A stretch of DNA of 64,000 nucleotides from Escherichia coli (GTDB lineage Bacteria; Pseudomonadota; Gammaproteobacteria; Enterobacterales; Enterobacteriaceae), in assembly GCF_046105845.1 (NCBI RefSeq), contig NZ_CP151004.1. One strand, written 5' to 3'. A program made the position numbers. Shown in pieces: positions 38,301-44,300 of this stretch. The first letter of the stretch is position 1. Each line of letters begins with the position of its first letter.

Positions 38301-41300
38301 GGTAATGAATTTGTGACGGTGAAATCGCTGAACGAGCAGGGCCAGCCTGTGGGCGTGGAGATATTTCATTATCGCGACGATCTCTCGCTCGAATCCTACA
38401 TTTTTGCACGCAGTGCCACCATTGAAGACGACAAAACGTGGATCCTGCATGGTGTGAATCATAAAAAATGGTTGAATGGCAAAGAAACGCTGGAAACATC
38501 AGATAATCTTGCCTGGCAATCGGCCTTCACCAGTATGGATCTTGAAGAGTTATCGATGCCGGGGAATACTTTTTCTGTCCGTCAGCTTAATCATTACATC
38601 CATTATTTGCAGGAAACCGGGCAACCCAGCAGCGATTACCGCCTTGCACTGTGGGAAAAACTGGGGCAACCCATCTTAACTCTGGCGATGATTTTGCTGG
38701 CTGTGCCGTTTACCTTTAGTGCCCCGCGTTCGCCTGGGATGGGTAGCCGTCTCGCTGTAGGCGTCATCGTGGGCTTACTCACCTGGATCAGCTATCAAAT
38801 CATGGTCAATCTGGGATTGCTATTTGCGTTGAGCGCACCTGTTACCGCGCTCGGTTTACCGATAGCGTTTGTGCTGGTGGCGTTGAGCCTGGTGTATTGG
38901 TATGACAGTCAACATTAAACCCGCCGTGGCGCAGCACCACAGCGGGCTCACATTACTGCTTCAGAGTAGCAAATGCCTGAATGATGGCATCGATTTGCTC
39001 ACGACTGTGGGCAGCGTTTACGCTACAGCGCAGCAGCGTGATGCCTGCAGGCGCGGCAGGTGGCAGGATAAGATTCACATAAACGCCCAGCGAAATAAGC
39101 TCGCGCCAGATGCGTAAACCTTCCTCTTTCGAACCGATTATTACTGGCACTACCGGGCTAATATGTGAACTTAACTCGTAACCCAGTTTTTGCAGACCGT
39201 CATACAGATGGTTGGCGTTATCCATCAGCTTTTGCCGCAGCTCTGGTTGTGAGGCAATGGTTCTTAACGACGAGCGCACGGTCGCAATGCAGGACGGAGA
39301 AGGAGAGGCGGTAAAAATATACGGGCGGCTGCCGTAGCGCAGCACTTCCATCGCTTCCGAACCGACAGCAAAACCGCCAATCGAGGCCAGACTTTTACTG
39401 AAAGTACCAACGATAATATCCACATCATCTTCAACGCCAACGGCTTCAGCCAGTCCGCGCCCCATTGCGCCTAACACGCCAAACGAATGCGCTTCATCGA
39501 CAATCAAATAACCACCGAGACGACGTTTGATATCAACAATTTCCGCTAACGGCGCAACGTCACCGAGCATGCTGTAGATACCCTCAACGATGATAATCGC
39601 CTCTTTCGCCCGTTCACCGAGGCGAACCATGCGCCGTTCCAGATCTTTAGCATCGTTATGGCGGAAACGAATAATTTCCGCGCCACCGAGAGAACAGGCG
39701 TCATAAATACTGGCGTGGCTGTCGGCATCCAGTAACACCACGGCGTTATGGTCGGCAAGTGCGCTGATGACGCCTAAATTAGCGGTATAACCGGTTGAAA
39801 AAACGATAGCGGTAGGGCGATTAAAAAACTCGGCGATCTCTTTCTCTAACGCCAGATGCGGCGCATAACTGCCGTTTGCCATACGAGAACCGGTGGTGCC
39901 GGTGCCTTGGGCCGCTAACGCTGCCTGACCTTCGGCGATGGCATCATGATTGAAGGTTAATCCGAGATAATTATTGGTCCCGGCCAGAATCACTTTTTTA
40001 TTGCCGATCCGACCTTCGGTGGCGGAATACACTTCATCAATACAGGTACCAAACGGCGTTAACCCGTTGTCACTAAATTGCAGTCGCTCGCCAGCAAGGC
40101 GCGCATATTTATCGTATAGCCCCATTATTTATTCTCCAGCCATGGAAGTAGTGTTTCCATTAATTGCGCAGGGGTTTTGACATCCAGCAGAATATTAATA
40201 GGAATGGAAATATCGAATCTGTCTTCCAGCATCATTAAGAGATCCATCACTTTGATCGACTCCAGGCCAAGATCGTTGACGAGATCGCTGTCGGGCTTAA
40301 TTTCCACACCGTTTTCGACCAAATCCTGTAAACAGGAAAGGATGTAATCCATTACTATTTCACGATTTACCATAGAAACGTTAACACACCTTTAAACAAG
40401 ACAATCAAAATAGCCCGTTGCGTAATGCGTGTTCCAGGCTAATCCCGGGAAACCAATTAATATCTTCAGAAATACGGTTATTACTTGCCGACCAGTCGGC
40501 ATGAGTTAATTCACGGATTTTCGAACGAGTCAGCATCGGTTCTTTACCCGCCAGACGGCTCAACGCGGTACTGATATCCGCAAGGCAGGTGAGTAGCGAC
40601 AGAGGAATACCGACCATCCGCACGGAACCACAACGGGCGTCGGCGGCAAGCTGTCTTACGCGTTGCCAGTCATAGCCGCCGGCGACGCCATCGCATAATT
40701 CATAGGTTTGCGTCTGTACAGTTTCGGCGCTTAACCACTGCCCCACGGCTTGCGCGAAATCGGTGACGTGCAGGAAAGAGAGCTGTGTCTCTGGCGCACC
40801 AAGTCGTGGCAGCAGGCCGCGCAGCATCCAGTCAAACAGCGGTTTTAACTCTTTATCGCCGGGACCATACACGGCTGTCGGGCGAAAAACGCCCAGCGTA
40901 ATTTCATCAGCCATTGCAGTCAGCCGTTGTTCGGCGACGTGTTTGGAATTTGCGTACCAGGAGAGTTCGGGATGGCGCGCCGCCAGCGAAGAGATAAACA
41001 GAAAACGTTGGCAAAAGCCGCTCTCTTTTGCCGCTTGCATCAGTCGCAGGCTGCCGTCAACGTTACAGCGGGTAAAAATCTCTTCTTTGTGCCCGCGCAC
41101 TTGCCCGGCGCAATGGACCACCGCGCTGGCTCCGGCAACCAGTTCGCTAAGTGAATGAGTATCTTCCAGAGAACCGCGCACCCAGATGAGATTGTCATTG
41201 ACGTGAGCGCGGGCAGTACGCGTCAATGTGCGAACGTGAAAGCCGCGGGCGAGCAGGTTATCGATAATATATTTACCGATAAACCCGGTAGCGCCCGTCA

Positions 41301-44300
41301 CCGCGACAGTTTGATTCATGCCAGGGATTCCTGCACATGAAGGCTTGCAGCATAAGCCTTCTGATAACGTTTTTTCGCTTCCGCACGGGCAGGCTTGCCG
41401 GAGGACGTTCGGGGAATACTGTGGGGCGGCAACAGATCGATAGCCGCTGTTACGCCAAATTCGCTTTGGATCCGTGCTACCAGCGCGTGGATAAGCTGCC
41501 CACGACGTTCTTCGTCGCTGATCCGACACTGGATCTGCAAAATGATTTTTTCCTGGGCGGTAACAAAAGCAATCGCATCGCCAGAATGAATTTCCGGTTC
41601 CTGTTCCGCAATATATTCAATATCCTGCGGCCAGATATTACGGCCACGAATAATAATCAGATCTTTAATGCGCCCGGTGACATACAGATAACCGTCCAGC
41701 AGATAACCGAGGTCGCCGGTGTCTAACCAGCCCGTCGCGGCAATCTCGTCTTGTGAAATCTGGTCGCCAAAGTAACCGCTCATCAGGCTAGGGCCGGAGA
41801 TGCAAATATGGCCTACCACACGTTCCGCGGCAGGTATACCTGCTTCATTGCGGATTTCAATGCCATGTTCTGGCAACGCTTTACCGCAGTTGACGAAAGT
41901 CGATACGGCGCGTGTTTCAGCACCCGGCGCGACGGCTTTGCCCTGATATTCAAGGATGTCGCGATCCACTTCGTTAACCACAACCCCGGAGGCTTCATCA
42001 GAGAAGCTGACAGCCAGCGCATTTTCTGCCAGTCCGTAGCACGGCATGAACGTTTTATCGTCAAAGTTAACCTGACGGAAACATTCAGCGAATTGATGGA
42101 GTTGTTCTGCGGAGATCGGCTCAGCACCAATACCAGCGACGCGCCAGCAGGATAGATCCAGTTCAGCGAGATCTTTTTCATTCACGCGGCGCTGGCACAA
42201 TTCATAGCCAAACGGCGGCGCAACGGAAACGGTGCCGCGATTTTTACTGATCAATTTAAGCCATTGCAGAGGACGCATGGCAAAATCCTGAGTGCGCAAA
42301 TAATCTACTGAGAGCTGCGTGGCGACGGGGGTCAGGAGAAAGCCGACCAGTCCCATATCATGGTAGAAAGGCAGCCAGGAGACGCAGCGGTCGCCAGGGC
42401 GTAATTTAATGCCATCGTGGCTTATAGCACGTAGATTAGCCATCACTTCGCGATGGGTGATAATGACGCCACGGGGAAAACGGGTGCTGCCGGAGGTGTA
42501 CTGGAGGTAGGCGATATCGTTCGGAACTGGATGCTGGAGTGCAACATCGGCTTCCGGTAATGCCTTAAACCAGGCGTGGCTTAAAACATGTAATTCGGGG
42601 TTGTTATGCGTAGCGGCATTGACCAGTGGCAACCACTCATCACCAGTGATAATGGCTGCGGGCTGGCAACTTGTCAGTAAACCCTGCAGTTTGGCGCTCC
42701 AGGAATCCCGCTGACCGACGCCCATTGGAATCGCCAACGGGACGGCGACTAAGCCGGCATACTGGCAGGAAAAAAAAGCCTCTACGAACCCGCTACTGGT
42801 TTCGGCAATCAGCGCCACGCGATCGCCTTTTTTCAGGTTCAGCGATAACAACCGCTTCGCACCAGCTTCGGCACGCGCTTTTAACGTCTGATATTCCAGT
42901 TGATCTTCAAGTTGGCAACGTCTGTCATAAAAATTCATTCCGGCGCTACTCAGAGCGGCGTAGTCCAAAGCATCAACCAGCGTTGGAAAATCGGCATAGC
43001 GCATAGGTAGGGAATGCGTAAAGATTTTATTAGACATATACACCACGAAAAAATTGGATATCAAAAATAAAATGACAATAATGCGGTGGATTATATAGGC
43101 ATAAAAGATAAATGAGATAGTATTTTCATCAGTGTGAAAATGAACATTGATTTAAATAATGAGTTTGAGTTTTTTTGTTTTTATTGTGAATGATATTTAA
43201 TTTATGAATATATTAAGAATAAGCCTTGTCCGGTCGCCTTAAATCGACAAAAGGCATTGTGGCGCTTCTGTGTAGTCTCTAACCTTATCGTAATCATTAA
43301 TAAATACTATTTATTCGTCGTTTGTATTCATTGGGTTGATTATTAAGGTGCCGTTCGTTGCTGTTGCAACCTGTTTGTCACCGTTAATTATTTGTTACCC
43401 ACAGAACTATGGAATGCGATCTGCTGATGATTAAAATTGAAAAAGTAATTAATAAAAATGACCTTAAGGCATTTATCGCTTTTCCGTCATCACTTTATCC
43501 CGACGATCCAAACTGGATACCCCCTTTATTCATTGAACGCAACGAGCATTTGTCTGCGAAAAATCCGGGGACGGACCATATCATCTGGCAGGCGTGGGTG
43601 GCAAAAAAAGCGGGGCAGATAGTTGGGCGTATTACCGTGCAAATAGATACCTTGCACCGCGAGCGTTACGGTGAAGATACCGGTCATTTCGGCATGATTG
43701 ACGCCATTGATGATCCGCAGGTTTTTGCCGCGTTGTTTGGCGCAGCGGAAGCGTGGTTGAAGTCACAAGGTGCAAGTAAGATCAGCGGTCCTTTCAGCCT
43801 GAATATCAATCAGGAAAGCGGATTACTGATTGAAGGTTTCGATACACCACCCTGTGCGATGATGCCGCACGGTAAACCGTGGTATGCCGCGCATATTGAA
43901 CAATTGGGTTATCACAAAGGCATTGATTTACTAGCGTGGTGGATGCAGCGAACCGATCTCACTTTCTCTCCGGCGCTAAAAAAACTGATGGATCAGGTGC
44001 GTAAGAAGGTGACCATTCGCTGCATCAATCGCCAGCGGTTTGCCGAAGAGATGCAGATCCTGCGTGAGATTTTCAACTCTGGCTGGCAGCACAACTGGGG
44101 ATTTGTGCCGTTTACCGAACATGAATTCGCGACTATGGGCGATCAACTTAAATATCTGGTGCCGGACGATATGATCTACATCGCTGAGATTGATTCTGCA
44201 CCCTGCGCGTTTATTGTTGGCTTGCCAAACATCAACGAGGCGATTGCCGATCTGAACGGATCGCTCTTTCCCTTCGGCTGGGCAAAATTGCTGTGGCGTT

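What the first reader, a model, noticed from the sequence alone, without database searches (positions are those of the whole stretch)
40123..41319. Stop/start overlaps indicating tight translational coupling in the accessory block
Seen in sequence: the ligase stop overlaps the reductase start (ATGA, 41316-41319) and the ACP stop overlaps the synthase start (TAATG, 40123-40127). The same pattern occurs at yghQ/ORF274 (35345) and the two LptFG-like genes (37839-37842). This argues that these are real co-translated genes whose products act in fixed stoichiometry.
Basis: seen in the sequence. Interest (0 to 1): 0.3.

Follow-up and report, generated by a model that had tools for sequence, protein, structure and literature searches.

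The report
Overlapping genes in E. coli sphingolipid operon
The overlapping stop and start codons are real, but they are the ordinary kind found in about half of tightly packed E. coli operon junctions, and they sit in an already described gene cluster for making and exporting a sphingolipid.

Summary
All four overlaps exist exactly as described; the two inside the finding lie on the minus strand. They are ATGA at 41319..41316 and TAATG at 40127..40123, plus TGATG at 35343-35347 and ATGA at 37839-37842 on the plus strand.

The genes are the known E. coli sphingolipid locus: aasR (acyl-AMP ligase), cerR/epi (reductase), acpR (dedicated ACP) and spt (serine palmitoyltransferase). A divergent operon beside it holds yghQ, orf274, a ytfJ-like gene, lptF2 and lptG2. 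The proteins are 96-100% identical to the BL21(DE3) orthologues, three of which were studied experimentally. K-12 lost the block to an IS5 insertion.

The overlaps are not enriched: 4 of 9 junctions in the block against 6 of 13 close junctions elsewhere in the window.

In 80 other species the acpR-spt junction is 10 nt or less in 71 of 78 loci, and lptF2-lptG2 is ATGA or GTGA in 19 of 22. The cerR-acpR junction almost always keeps a spacer of about 30 nt. So coupling is plausible, in two translational modules rather than one.

"Fixed stoichiometry" is justified only for LptF2/LptG2. Coupling itself remains untested. Ordinary, already known, low interest.

The parts
41316..43004 (-). aasR: fatty acyl-AMP ligase / acyl-AcpR synthetase, first gene of the operon. 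The annotated ATG at 43004 has no SD site; the longest ORF would start at TTG 43064.
   Evidence: NCBIfam PRK09192 863 bits against a cutoff of 600. 97.5% identical to the BL21(DE3) orthologue, which is ECD_02851 AasR in PMC9386255. SD energy +1.9 kcal/mol.
41316..41319 (-). ATGA: the aasR stop (TGA) overlaps the reductase start (ATG) by 4 nt.
   Evidence: The junction sequence is identical in BL21. The same -4 geometry occurs in 15 of 60 species and the junction is 10 nt or less in 46 of 60. A weak SD site, AGGA at -4.3 kcal/mol, lies 9 nt upstream.
40405..41319 (-). cerR/epi-like NAD-dependent SDR reductase (304 aa), with the Rossmann motif GATGFIG at residues 9-15.
   Evidence: Pfam Epimerase 4e-23. 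96.1% identical to the BL21 orthologue, which is ECD_02852 'epi' in PMC9386255. The start is confirmed by homologue N-termini.
40374..40404 (-). 31-nt non-coding spacer between the reductase stop and the acpR start. It separates the two translational modules.
   Evidence: The spacer is conserved: 11-100 nt in 51 of 65 species and overlapping in only 5 of 65. About 20 nt of spacer abolishes termination-reinitiation (PMC10666635).
40125..40373 (-). acpR: specialised acyl carrier protein (82 aa).
   Evidence: Pfam PP-binding 1.3e-13. 100% identical to BL21 AcpR, which was shown to carry 4'-phosphopantetheine (PMC9386255).
40123..40127 (-). TAATG: the acpR stop (TAA) overlaps the spt start (ATG) by 1 nt. 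An SD site, GGAG, lies 8 nt upstream inside the acpR codons.
   Evidence: -6.4 kcal/mol. The junction is 10 nt or less in 71 of 78 species and overlapping in 49 of 78, with variable geometry of -1, -4, -14, +2 and +3.
38953..40125 (-). spt: serine palmitoyltransferase (390 aa), last gene of the operon.
   Evidence: NCBIfam NF047599 598.7 bits against a cutoff of 500. 99.0% identical to BL21 Spt, which forms 3-oxo-sphinganine together with AasR and AcpR (PMC9386255).
43409..44551 (+). yghO: the 'aca'/bCerS-type N-acyltransferase candidate, divergently transcribed from aasR.
   Evidence: 99.5% identical to BL21 YghO. It is listed as aca = yghO ECD_02850 in PMC9386255. It has no Pfam or NCBIfam hit.
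33996..35345 (+). yghQ: MOP/Wzx-type flippase-like membrane protein. Its TGA stop overlaps the orf274 ATG (TGATG, 35343-35347).
   Evidence: Pfam Polysacc_synt 3.2e-11. The junction is shown and is -1, -4 or 0-10 nt in 9 of 9 species. Weak homologues (26-28% identity) sit upstream of aasR in Caulobacter loci.
35345..36169 (+). orf274: hypothetical protein of 274 aa with no family match.
   Evidence: Searches give no hits. It is conserved next to yghQ in Enterobacterales and Luteibacter. dN/dS is 0.07.
36181..36741 (+). YtfJ-family protein with a signal-peptide-like N-terminus.
   Evidence: NCBIfam TIGR01626 215 bits against a cutoff of 151.
36772..37842 (+). lptF2: an LptF-family permease paralogue.
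   Evidence: TIGR04407 317 bits against a cutoff of 230. Caulobacter LptF2/G2 form a complex with LptB (preprint).
37839..38918 (+). lptG2: an LptG-family permease paralogue. Its ATG overlaps the lptF2 TGA (ATGA, 37839-37842) and there is no SD site upstream.
   Evidence: TIGR04408 306 bits against a cutoff of 240. SD energy +0.2 kcal/mol. The -4 overlap is present in 19 of 22 species at 24-96% identity.

Best explanation
The finding lies in the minus-strand operon aasR-cerR-acpR-spt of the E. coli sphingolipid (ceramide) locus.

Shown: the four ORFs are intact and under purifying selection. They are near-identical to the BL21(DE3) genes, of which AasR, AcpR and Spt together make 3-oxo-sphinganine when overexpressed.

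Inferred: the operon is translated as two modules. Ribosomes start de novo at aasR and again at acpR, after the 31-nt spacer. cerR (ATGA overlap) and spt (TAATG overlap) are translated largely by ribosomes that have just terminated on the upstream cistron, a process called termination-reinitiation. The SD-like sites AGGA and GGAG, embedded in the upstream coding sequence, would help.

The same logic applies to lptF2-lptG2 in the divergent operon. There the ATGA has no SD site at all, so LptG2 synthesis probably depends on LptF2 translation. That would give the 1:1 output suited to a heterodimeric permease. It also applies to yghQ-orf274.

For acpR-spt, the likely benefit is that Spt is made only together with its dedicated acyl carrier. 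This is co-expression, not a fixed structural ratio.

The overlaps themselves are the commonest junction type in E. coli operons and are not a special feature of this block.
For: Sequence and annotation agree on the overlaps. Family assignments are above curated cutoffs. Identity to the BL21 proteins is 96-100% and the junction sequences are identical. BL21 AasR, AcpR and Spt are functional (PMC9386255). dN/dS is 0.025-0.127.

Comparative test on 80 species loci:
- acpR-spt is 10 nt or less in 71 of 78 loci (48 of 53 genus-level groups).
- aasR-cerR is 10 nt or less in 46 of 60.
- lptF2-lptG2 is -4 in 19 of 22.
- cerR-acpR, the internal control, is 10 nt or less in only 6 of 65 (Fisher p = 5e-25 against acpR-spt).

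The exact geometry changes between lineages (-1, -4, -14, 0, +2, +3) while the junction stays tight. That argues for selection on proximity rather than for inheritance of one state.

lptG2 has no SD site in Enterobacterales, and many Nitrosomonas spt starts visibly lack one.

Published experiments found strict coupling in 4 of 5 native E. coli ATGA pairs (PMC6728339). Coupling was lost with spacers of about 20 nt, and overlaps were enriched in heteromeric complexes (PMC10666635). LptF2 and LptG2 co-purify (preprint). Canonical lptF/lptG in K-12 also overlap, by 1 nt.
Against: There are no expression or translation data for this operon.

Overlap frequency in the block (4 of 9) equals that of neighbouring operons (6 of 13 close pairs), so the overlaps carry little information on their own.

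spt has a usable SD site (-6.4 kcal/mol) and could start independently, as bioF does in the bioBF pair.

No RNA structure that would mask the downstream starts stands out (z-scores -0.7 to +1.5).

Empty-vector controls in BL21, which carries the chromosomal locus, showed no 3-oxo-sphinganine. The operon may therefore be silent in the laboratory.

aasR is frameshifted in the closest complete genome.

The species loci are not phylogenetically independent. Downstream starts in them were inferred by alignment, not measured.
Confidence: 0.72

Rival explanations
1. The overlaps are neutral by-products of operon compaction. ATGA and TAATG arise easily, and each downstream gene is started independently at its own ribosome-binding site, so there is co-transcription but no translational coupling.
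For: Overlaps are equally common in neighbouring operons: hyb has five overlapping junctions and glcDE one, and Fisher p = 1.0. spt and orf274 have GGAG SD sites at good spacing. The bioBF pair of E. coli overlaps yet starts de novo (PMC6728339). The exact overlap geometry is not conserved between genera.
Against: Tightness of acpR-spt and lptF2-lptG2 is kept across phyla, while cerR-acpR in the same operons keeps a spacer. lptG2 has no SD site. Four of five tested E. coli ATGA pairs were strictly coupled.
Confidence: 0.2
2. The operon is a silent or decaying accessory remnant in E. coli, so the junction geometry has no present function in this strain.
For: The block is absent from 1235 of 5426 complete genomes, and K-12 has an IS5 in its place. 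aasR is frameshifted in strain GN06156. The annotated aasR start has no SD site and no promoter-like site exceeds chance. BL21 empty-vector controls show no product.
Against: All genes are intact in the window. dN/dS is 0.025-0.127 against a divergent Escherichia. The block covers at least 80% of the query in 4067 of 5426 genomes. The locus is syntenic in Hafnia, Pseudocitrobacter, Pluralibacter and others.
Confidence: 0.06
3. The overlaps are artefacts of start-codon choice: the true downstream starts lie elsewhere and the genes do not overlap.
For: The longest ORF of the reductase starts at GTG 41529, and orf274 has a second ATG at 35348.
Against: The homologue N-termini align to the chosen starts, with an offset of 0 codons in nearly all spt comparisons and in all the ATGA aasR-cerR junctions of Enterobacterales. 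The reductase Rossmann motif begins at residue 9, which leaves no room for a later start. The GTG extension would add 70 residues that overlap aasR and have no homologue support. PGAP picks the same starts in two genomes.
Confidence: 0.02

Closest known systems
Sphingolipid (dihydroceramide) biosynthesis operon of E. coli BL21(DE3), ECD_02851-02854 plus yghO (Padilla-Gomez et al. 2022, PMC9386255), and the homologous Caulobacter crescentus CC_1165-CC_1162
   Same: The gene order aasR-epi/cerR-acpR-spt is the same, with yghO/aca beside it. The proteins are 96-100% identical to BL21 and the junction sequences are identical. Caulobacter loci show the same tight / spacer / tight pattern: about +1, about +79 and +3 nt.
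   Different: Nothing of substance differs from BL21. The window is a different E. coli strain (best genome match 98.8%). The papers I searched do not discuss the stop/start overlaps: 'overlap' has 0 occurrences in PMC9386255 and in the LptF2/G2 preprint.
Termination-reinitiation coupling at ATGA / TGATG overlaps (Huber et al. 2019, PMC6728339; 2023, PMC10666635)
   Same: The overlap geometry (-4, -1) is the same, with an SD site inside the upstream gene for spt, cerR and orf274. One pair, lptF2/lptG2, encodes a heteromeric complex.
   Different: Coupling has not been measured for any junction here. aasR-cerR and acpR-spt do not encode subunits of a known complex.
Canonical lptF-lptG of E. coli and LptF2-LptG2 of Caulobacter (bioRxiv 10.64898/2026.04.12.717747)
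   Same: Both are paired LptF-family and LptG-family permease genes with overlapping stop and start; K-12 lptF/lptG overlap by 1 nt. The pair lies in a sphingolipid locus, and the preprint figures the E. coli UTI89 locus.
   Different: The window pair is a paralogue, not the housekeeping pair. No lptB or lptC copy sits beside it. Its substrate in E. coli is unknown.

Membership tests
Translationally coupled overlapping gene pair (termination-reinitiation) | Co-directional adjacent genes whose stop and start codons overlap by 4 or 1 nt | tested here: met
   ATGA at 41319..41316(-), TAATG at 40127..40123(-), TGATG at 35343-35347(+) and ATGA at 37839-37842(+). The starts are supported by homologue alignment and by PGAP.
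Translationally coupled overlapping gene pair (termination-reinitiation) | Downstream translation depends on ribosomes reaching the upstream stop codon | not testable with these tools
   This needs reporter fusions with premature stop codons, or ribosome profiling. The only indirect support is conserved tight junctions and the absence of an SD site before lptG2.
Translationally coupled overlapping gene pair (termination-reinitiation) | Both genes lie on one mRNA | tested here: inconclusive
   No promoter-like or terminator-like signal exceeds chance within 38700-43500, and the gene order is conserved in most of the 80 species loci. No transcript data are available.
Translationally coupled overlapping gene pair (termination-reinitiation) | An SD motif inside the 3' end of the upstream gene (usual in E. 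coli but not obligatory) | tested here: inconclusive
   spt has GGAG at -6.4 kcal/mol, orf274 GGAG at -6.6, cerR AGGA at -4.3 and lptG2 none at +0.2.
Rhodobacteria-type sphingolipid biosynthesis operon (aasR-epi/cerR-acpR-spt) | A serine palmitoyltransferase of the proteobacterial Spt family | tested here: met
   NF047599 598.7 bits against a cutoff of 500. 99.0% identical to BL21 Spt.
Rhodobacteria-type sphingolipid biosynthesis operon (aasR-epi/cerR-acpR-spt) | A specialised ACP gene immediately upstream of spt, with an acyl-ACP synthetase (FAAL-type) nearby | tested here: met
   PP-binding 1.3e-13 and PRK09192 863 bits against 600. AcpR is 100% and AasR 97.5% identical to BL21. The arrangement is described in PMC9386255.
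Rhodobacteria-type sphingolipid biosynthesis operon (aasR-epi/cerR-acpR-spt) | An SDR reductase (epi/CerR) and an N-acyltransferase (aca/bCerS = yghO) are present | tested here: met
   Pfam Epimerase 4e-23. The reductase is 96.1% and YghO 99.5% identical to the BL21 orthologues named in PMC9386255.
Rhodobacteria-type sphingolipid biosynthesis operon (aasR-epi/cerR-acpR-spt) | Production of 3-oxo-sphinganine or ceramide by the encoded enzymes | not testable with these tools
   This was reported for overexpressed BL21 AasR, AcpR and Spt (PMC9386255). I found no report of native production by E. coli in the papers I read.
LptF2/LptG2 sphingolipid-locus permease pair | One LptF-family and one LptG-family paralogue encoded side by side in a sphingolipid locus | tested here: met
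   TIGR04407 317 bits and TIGR04408 306 bits, both above cutoff. The pair is adjacent to spt, and is found near spt in 22 of the species loci.
LptF2/LptG2 sphingolipid-locus permease pair | The two proteins form a complex with each other and with LptB | not testable with these tools
   This was shown by pull-down only for Caulobacter (preprint).

The most novel reading that the evidence does not exclude
The conserved layout is [aasR|cerR], a spacer of about 30 nt, then [acpR|spt], kept from Enterobacterales to Nitrosomonas, Nitrospira, Geobacter and Caulobacter. It could be a selected translational design. An independent start at acpR would set the level of the dedicated acyl carrier. Spt would be made only by ribosomes that have just finished AcpR. 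That would stop Spt from drawing on acyl-CoA or the housekeeping ACP pool. LptG2, which has no SD site, would be obligatorily made 1:1 with LptF2.
Probability: 0.3. Interest if true: 0.3.

Novelty: already known. Interest (0 to 1): 0.12.

Why it matters
It matters little beyond correct annotation. The overlaps confirm that this accessory block is a set of compact operons, and they give a ready hypothesis for how the paired genes are co-expressed.

The broader locus is more interesting than the overlaps. About three quarters of complete E. coli genomes carry an intact, selected set of genes for ceramide synthesis and LptF2/G2-type export, yet I found no report of native sphingolipid production by E. 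coli. That question is already raised in the literature, and the stop/start overlaps do not open it.

Tried and rejected
- **Masking RNA structure.** I folded the -99 to +30 fragments of four junctions. The z-scores were -0.7 to +1.5, no better than shuffles. A small hairpin covers the cerR SD site and AUG, but it is not significant and the sequence is not conserved in other Enterobacterales.
- **Internal promoters and terminators.** Counts were at chance level.
- **Rfam scan of the whole window.** Nothing lies in the block.
- **Gene fusions as evidence for 1:1 action.** Protein P0126 (794 aa, reductase plus Spt domains) looked like a cerR-acpR-spt fusion. Its middle 100 residues are Arg/Gly/Ala-rich with no ACP similarity. 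It comes from a single metagenome-assembled genome contig and is most likely a frameshift or gene-call artefact. P0047 is a eukaryote-pipeline gene call that merges ACP and Spt.
- **YghR/S/T as ceramide kinases.** I asked whether they are homologues of the Caulobacter ceramide kinase CpgB. They are not: CpgB is DAG-kinase-like with a GGDG motif (PMC10331486).
- **Enrichment of overlaps in the block.** Compared with the rest of the window, it is not enriched.

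
Full report
**Observation.** The two overlaps inside the finding are on the minus strand. Read 5'->3' on that strand, 41319..41316 is ATGA, formed by the reductase start ATG and the ligase stop TGA. Likewise 40127..40123 is TAATG, formed by the ACP stop TAA and the synthase start ATG. One is TGATG at 35343-35347 (yghQ/orf274), where a second ATG at 35348 would give a 2-nt gap. The other is ATGA at 37839-37842. NCBI's annotation of two E. coli genomes uses the same boundaries. The downstream starts are pinned by alignment to the N-termini of homologues in up to 78 other species.

**Is it more than chance?** No. I transferred annotated gene coordinates onto the window. Outside the block, 6 of 28 same-strand junctions overlap, and 6 of the 13 that are closer than 50 nt: five in the hyb operon and glcD/glcE. 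Inside the block the figure is 4 of 9. Fisher tests give p = 0.21 and p = 1.0. Published surveys say that -4 and -1 are by far the commonest distances between serial genes in prokaryotes. About 15% of gene pairs overlap in most groups (PMC6728339; PMC10666635).

**What the genes are.** The window is an E. coli chromosome segment running from parC to gspD. On the minus strand:
- 41316-43004 is a fatty acyl-AMP ligase (PRK09192, 863 bits against a cutoff of 600).
- 40405-41319 is an NAD-dependent SDR reductase.
- 40125-40373 is an 82-residue acyl carrier protein.
- 38953-40125 is a serine palmitoyltransferase (NF047599, 598.7 bits against a cutoff of 500).

This is the aasR-epi/cerR-acpR-spt operon described for E. 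coli BL21(DE3) as ECD_02851-02854, with yghO (43409-44551) as the N-acyltransferase candidate (PMC9386255). BL21(DE3) has the same gene boundaries. The window proteins are 97.5% (AasR), 96.1% (reductase), 100% (AcpR), 99.0% (Spt) and 99.5% (YghO) identical to it, and both junction sequences are identical. In that paper the BL21 AcpR carries phosphopantetheine. AasR, AcpR and Spt together give 3-oxo-sphinganine when overexpressed. Empty-vector BL21 gives none.

The divergent plus-strand operon holds a MOP-type flippase-like protein (yghQ), a protein with no family (orf274), a YtfJ-family protein and paralogues of LptF and LptG. In Caulobacter the LptF2/LptG2 paralogues of the sphingolipid locus co-purify with each other and with LptB. 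The preprint reporting this also figures the E. coli UTI89 locus. K-12 has an IS5 where the block from the 3' end of yghQ to the 5' end of yghO should be. A place covering at least 80% of the 38900-43100 query is present in 4067 of 5426 complete E. coli genomes. All nine genes I compared show dN/dS of 0.025-0.127 against a divergent Escherichia, so they are real, selected genes.

**Comparative test of coupling.** I used an Spt alignment to fetch 80 loci, one per species, from Enterobacterales, Pseudomonas, Nitrosomonas, Nitrosospira, Nitrospira, Geobacter, Caulobacter and others. The order aasR-cerR-acpR-spt holds in most of them. Junction distances, with starts chosen by alignment, are as follows:

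| Junction | n | -1 | -4 | Other overlap | 0-10 nt | >10 nt |
|---|---|---|---|---|---|---|
| acpR-spt | 78 | 21 | 15 | 13 | 22 | 7 |
| aasR-cerR | 60 | 0 | 15 | 7 | 24 | 14 |
| cerR-acpR | 65 | 1 | 2 | 2 | 1 | 59 |
| lptF2-lptG2 | 22 | 0 | 19 | 1 | 1 | 1 |

The "other overlap" class of acpR-spt is mostly -14 nt, in Enterobacterales and Pseudomonas. Most cerR-acpR spacers are 11-100 nt.

Collapsed to genus-level groups, acpR-spt is tight (10 nt or less) in 48 of 53, cerR-acpR in 5 of 43 and aasR-cerR in 28 of 39. Within the same operons, then, two junctions are kept tight and one is kept open. The exact geometry drifts between lineages: E. coli -1, its relatives -14, Nitrosomonas -1, -4 or 0, Caulobacter +3. 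This is what selection on proximity would produce, and it is hard to explain by inheritance of a single ancestral state. It is indirect evidence only.

**Ribosome-binding (SD) sites and structure.** In the window, spt has GGAG 8 nt upstream (-6.4 kcal/mol against the anti-SD sequence). orf274 has GGAG (-6.6) and cerR has AGGA (-4.3). lptG2 has nothing (+0.2), and the same is true in the other Enterobacterales. A start with no SD site that is fused to the upstream stop is the clearest sequence hint of reinitiation. Folding the junction fragments gave no structure better than shuffled controls. Promoter-like and terminator-like matches were at chance, and no Rfam family lies in the block.

**Mechanism.**
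- Shown: intact, selected genes of a known pathway, with overlap geometry that is conserved in tightness.
- Established elsewhere: 4 of 5 native E. coli ATGA pairs are strictly coupled by termination-reinitiation, with bioBF the exception. About 20 nt of spacer abolishes coupling. Overlaps are enriched among subunits of heteromeric complexes.
- Inferred: the operon is translated as two modules. There is de novo initiation at aasR and at acpR, and cerR and spt are fed mainly by terminating ribosomes. lptG2 depends on lptF2.

"Fixed stoichiometry" fits LptF2/LptG2, a heterodimeric permease by analogy; canonical lptF/lptG of K-12 also overlap. It does not fit ligase/reductase. These are not known partners, and in Caulobacter CerR is reported to be periplasmic while Spt and bCerS are cytoplasmic. 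It fits ACP/Spt only loosely, since they are carrier-bound substrate and enzyme. The specific protein pairing demonstrated experimentally is AasR with AcpR, and those two genes are not adjacent.

**Verdict.** The one modest addition from this work is the conserved tight / spacer / tight junction pattern across phyla.

Noticed in passing
window 31581-33950 (yghT on the minus strand; yghS and yghR on the plus strand): Three paralogous P-loop 'dTMP-kinase-like' proteins flank the locus. They co-occur with spt in other Enterobacterales, Luteibacter (L029), a betaproteobacterial MAG (L023) and a Pseudomonas MAG (L014). They may belong to the sphingolipid locus, for example in head-group chemistry. 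They are not related to the DAG-kinase-like ceramide kinase CpgB.
   Followed up: partly
window 41316-41330 (-), 3' end of aasR: Compared with other Enterobacterales and a divergent Escherichia (..LAGxAQ*), the window and BL21 AasR end four codons earlier (..SLA*). A 12-nt in-frame deletion between two CA dinucleotides recreates the ATGA overlap.
   Followed up: partly
L001 11417-13106 (E. coli GN06156): aasR is annotated as frameshifted in the closest complete genome, whereas it is intact in the window and in BL21. I did not measure how often the locus is inactivated across E. coli.
   Followed up: no
window 42983-43064 (-), start of aasR: The annotated aasR start (ATG 43004) has no SD site (+1.9 kcal/mol). 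The upstream in-frame ATG at 43037 has only a weak one (-2.8). No promoter-like site lies in the 400-nt aasR-yghO intergenic region. How the operon is expressed is unclear.
   Followed up: no
window 17343-18383 (-): The gpr (L-glyceraldehyde 3-phosphate reductase) orthologue contains one internal stop codon when the annotated coordinates are transferred, so it may be a pseudogene in this strain.
   Followed up: no
window 26307-26439 (+): The hybF-hybG spacer is 133 nt here against 12 nt in E. coli GN06156, an insertion of about 120 nt. A naRNA4/REP-type element is also called just after hybG, at 26704-26780.
   Followed up: no
L085 8147-9341 (K-12 MG1655): In K-12 an IS5 (IS5LO/insH9) sits between a truncated yghO and a truncated yghQ and replaces the whole spt / lptF2G2 block.
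   Followed up: yes
L036, L037, L052, L061, L064 (Halieaceae / Halioglobus and a related gammaproteobacterial MAG): In this group the acpR-spt junction is relaxed to 32-138 nt. aasR-cerR is not upstream of acpR, and lptF2/lptG2 lie about 4 kb upstream instead. This lineage has a rearranged locus and is an exception to the tight junction.
   Followed up: no
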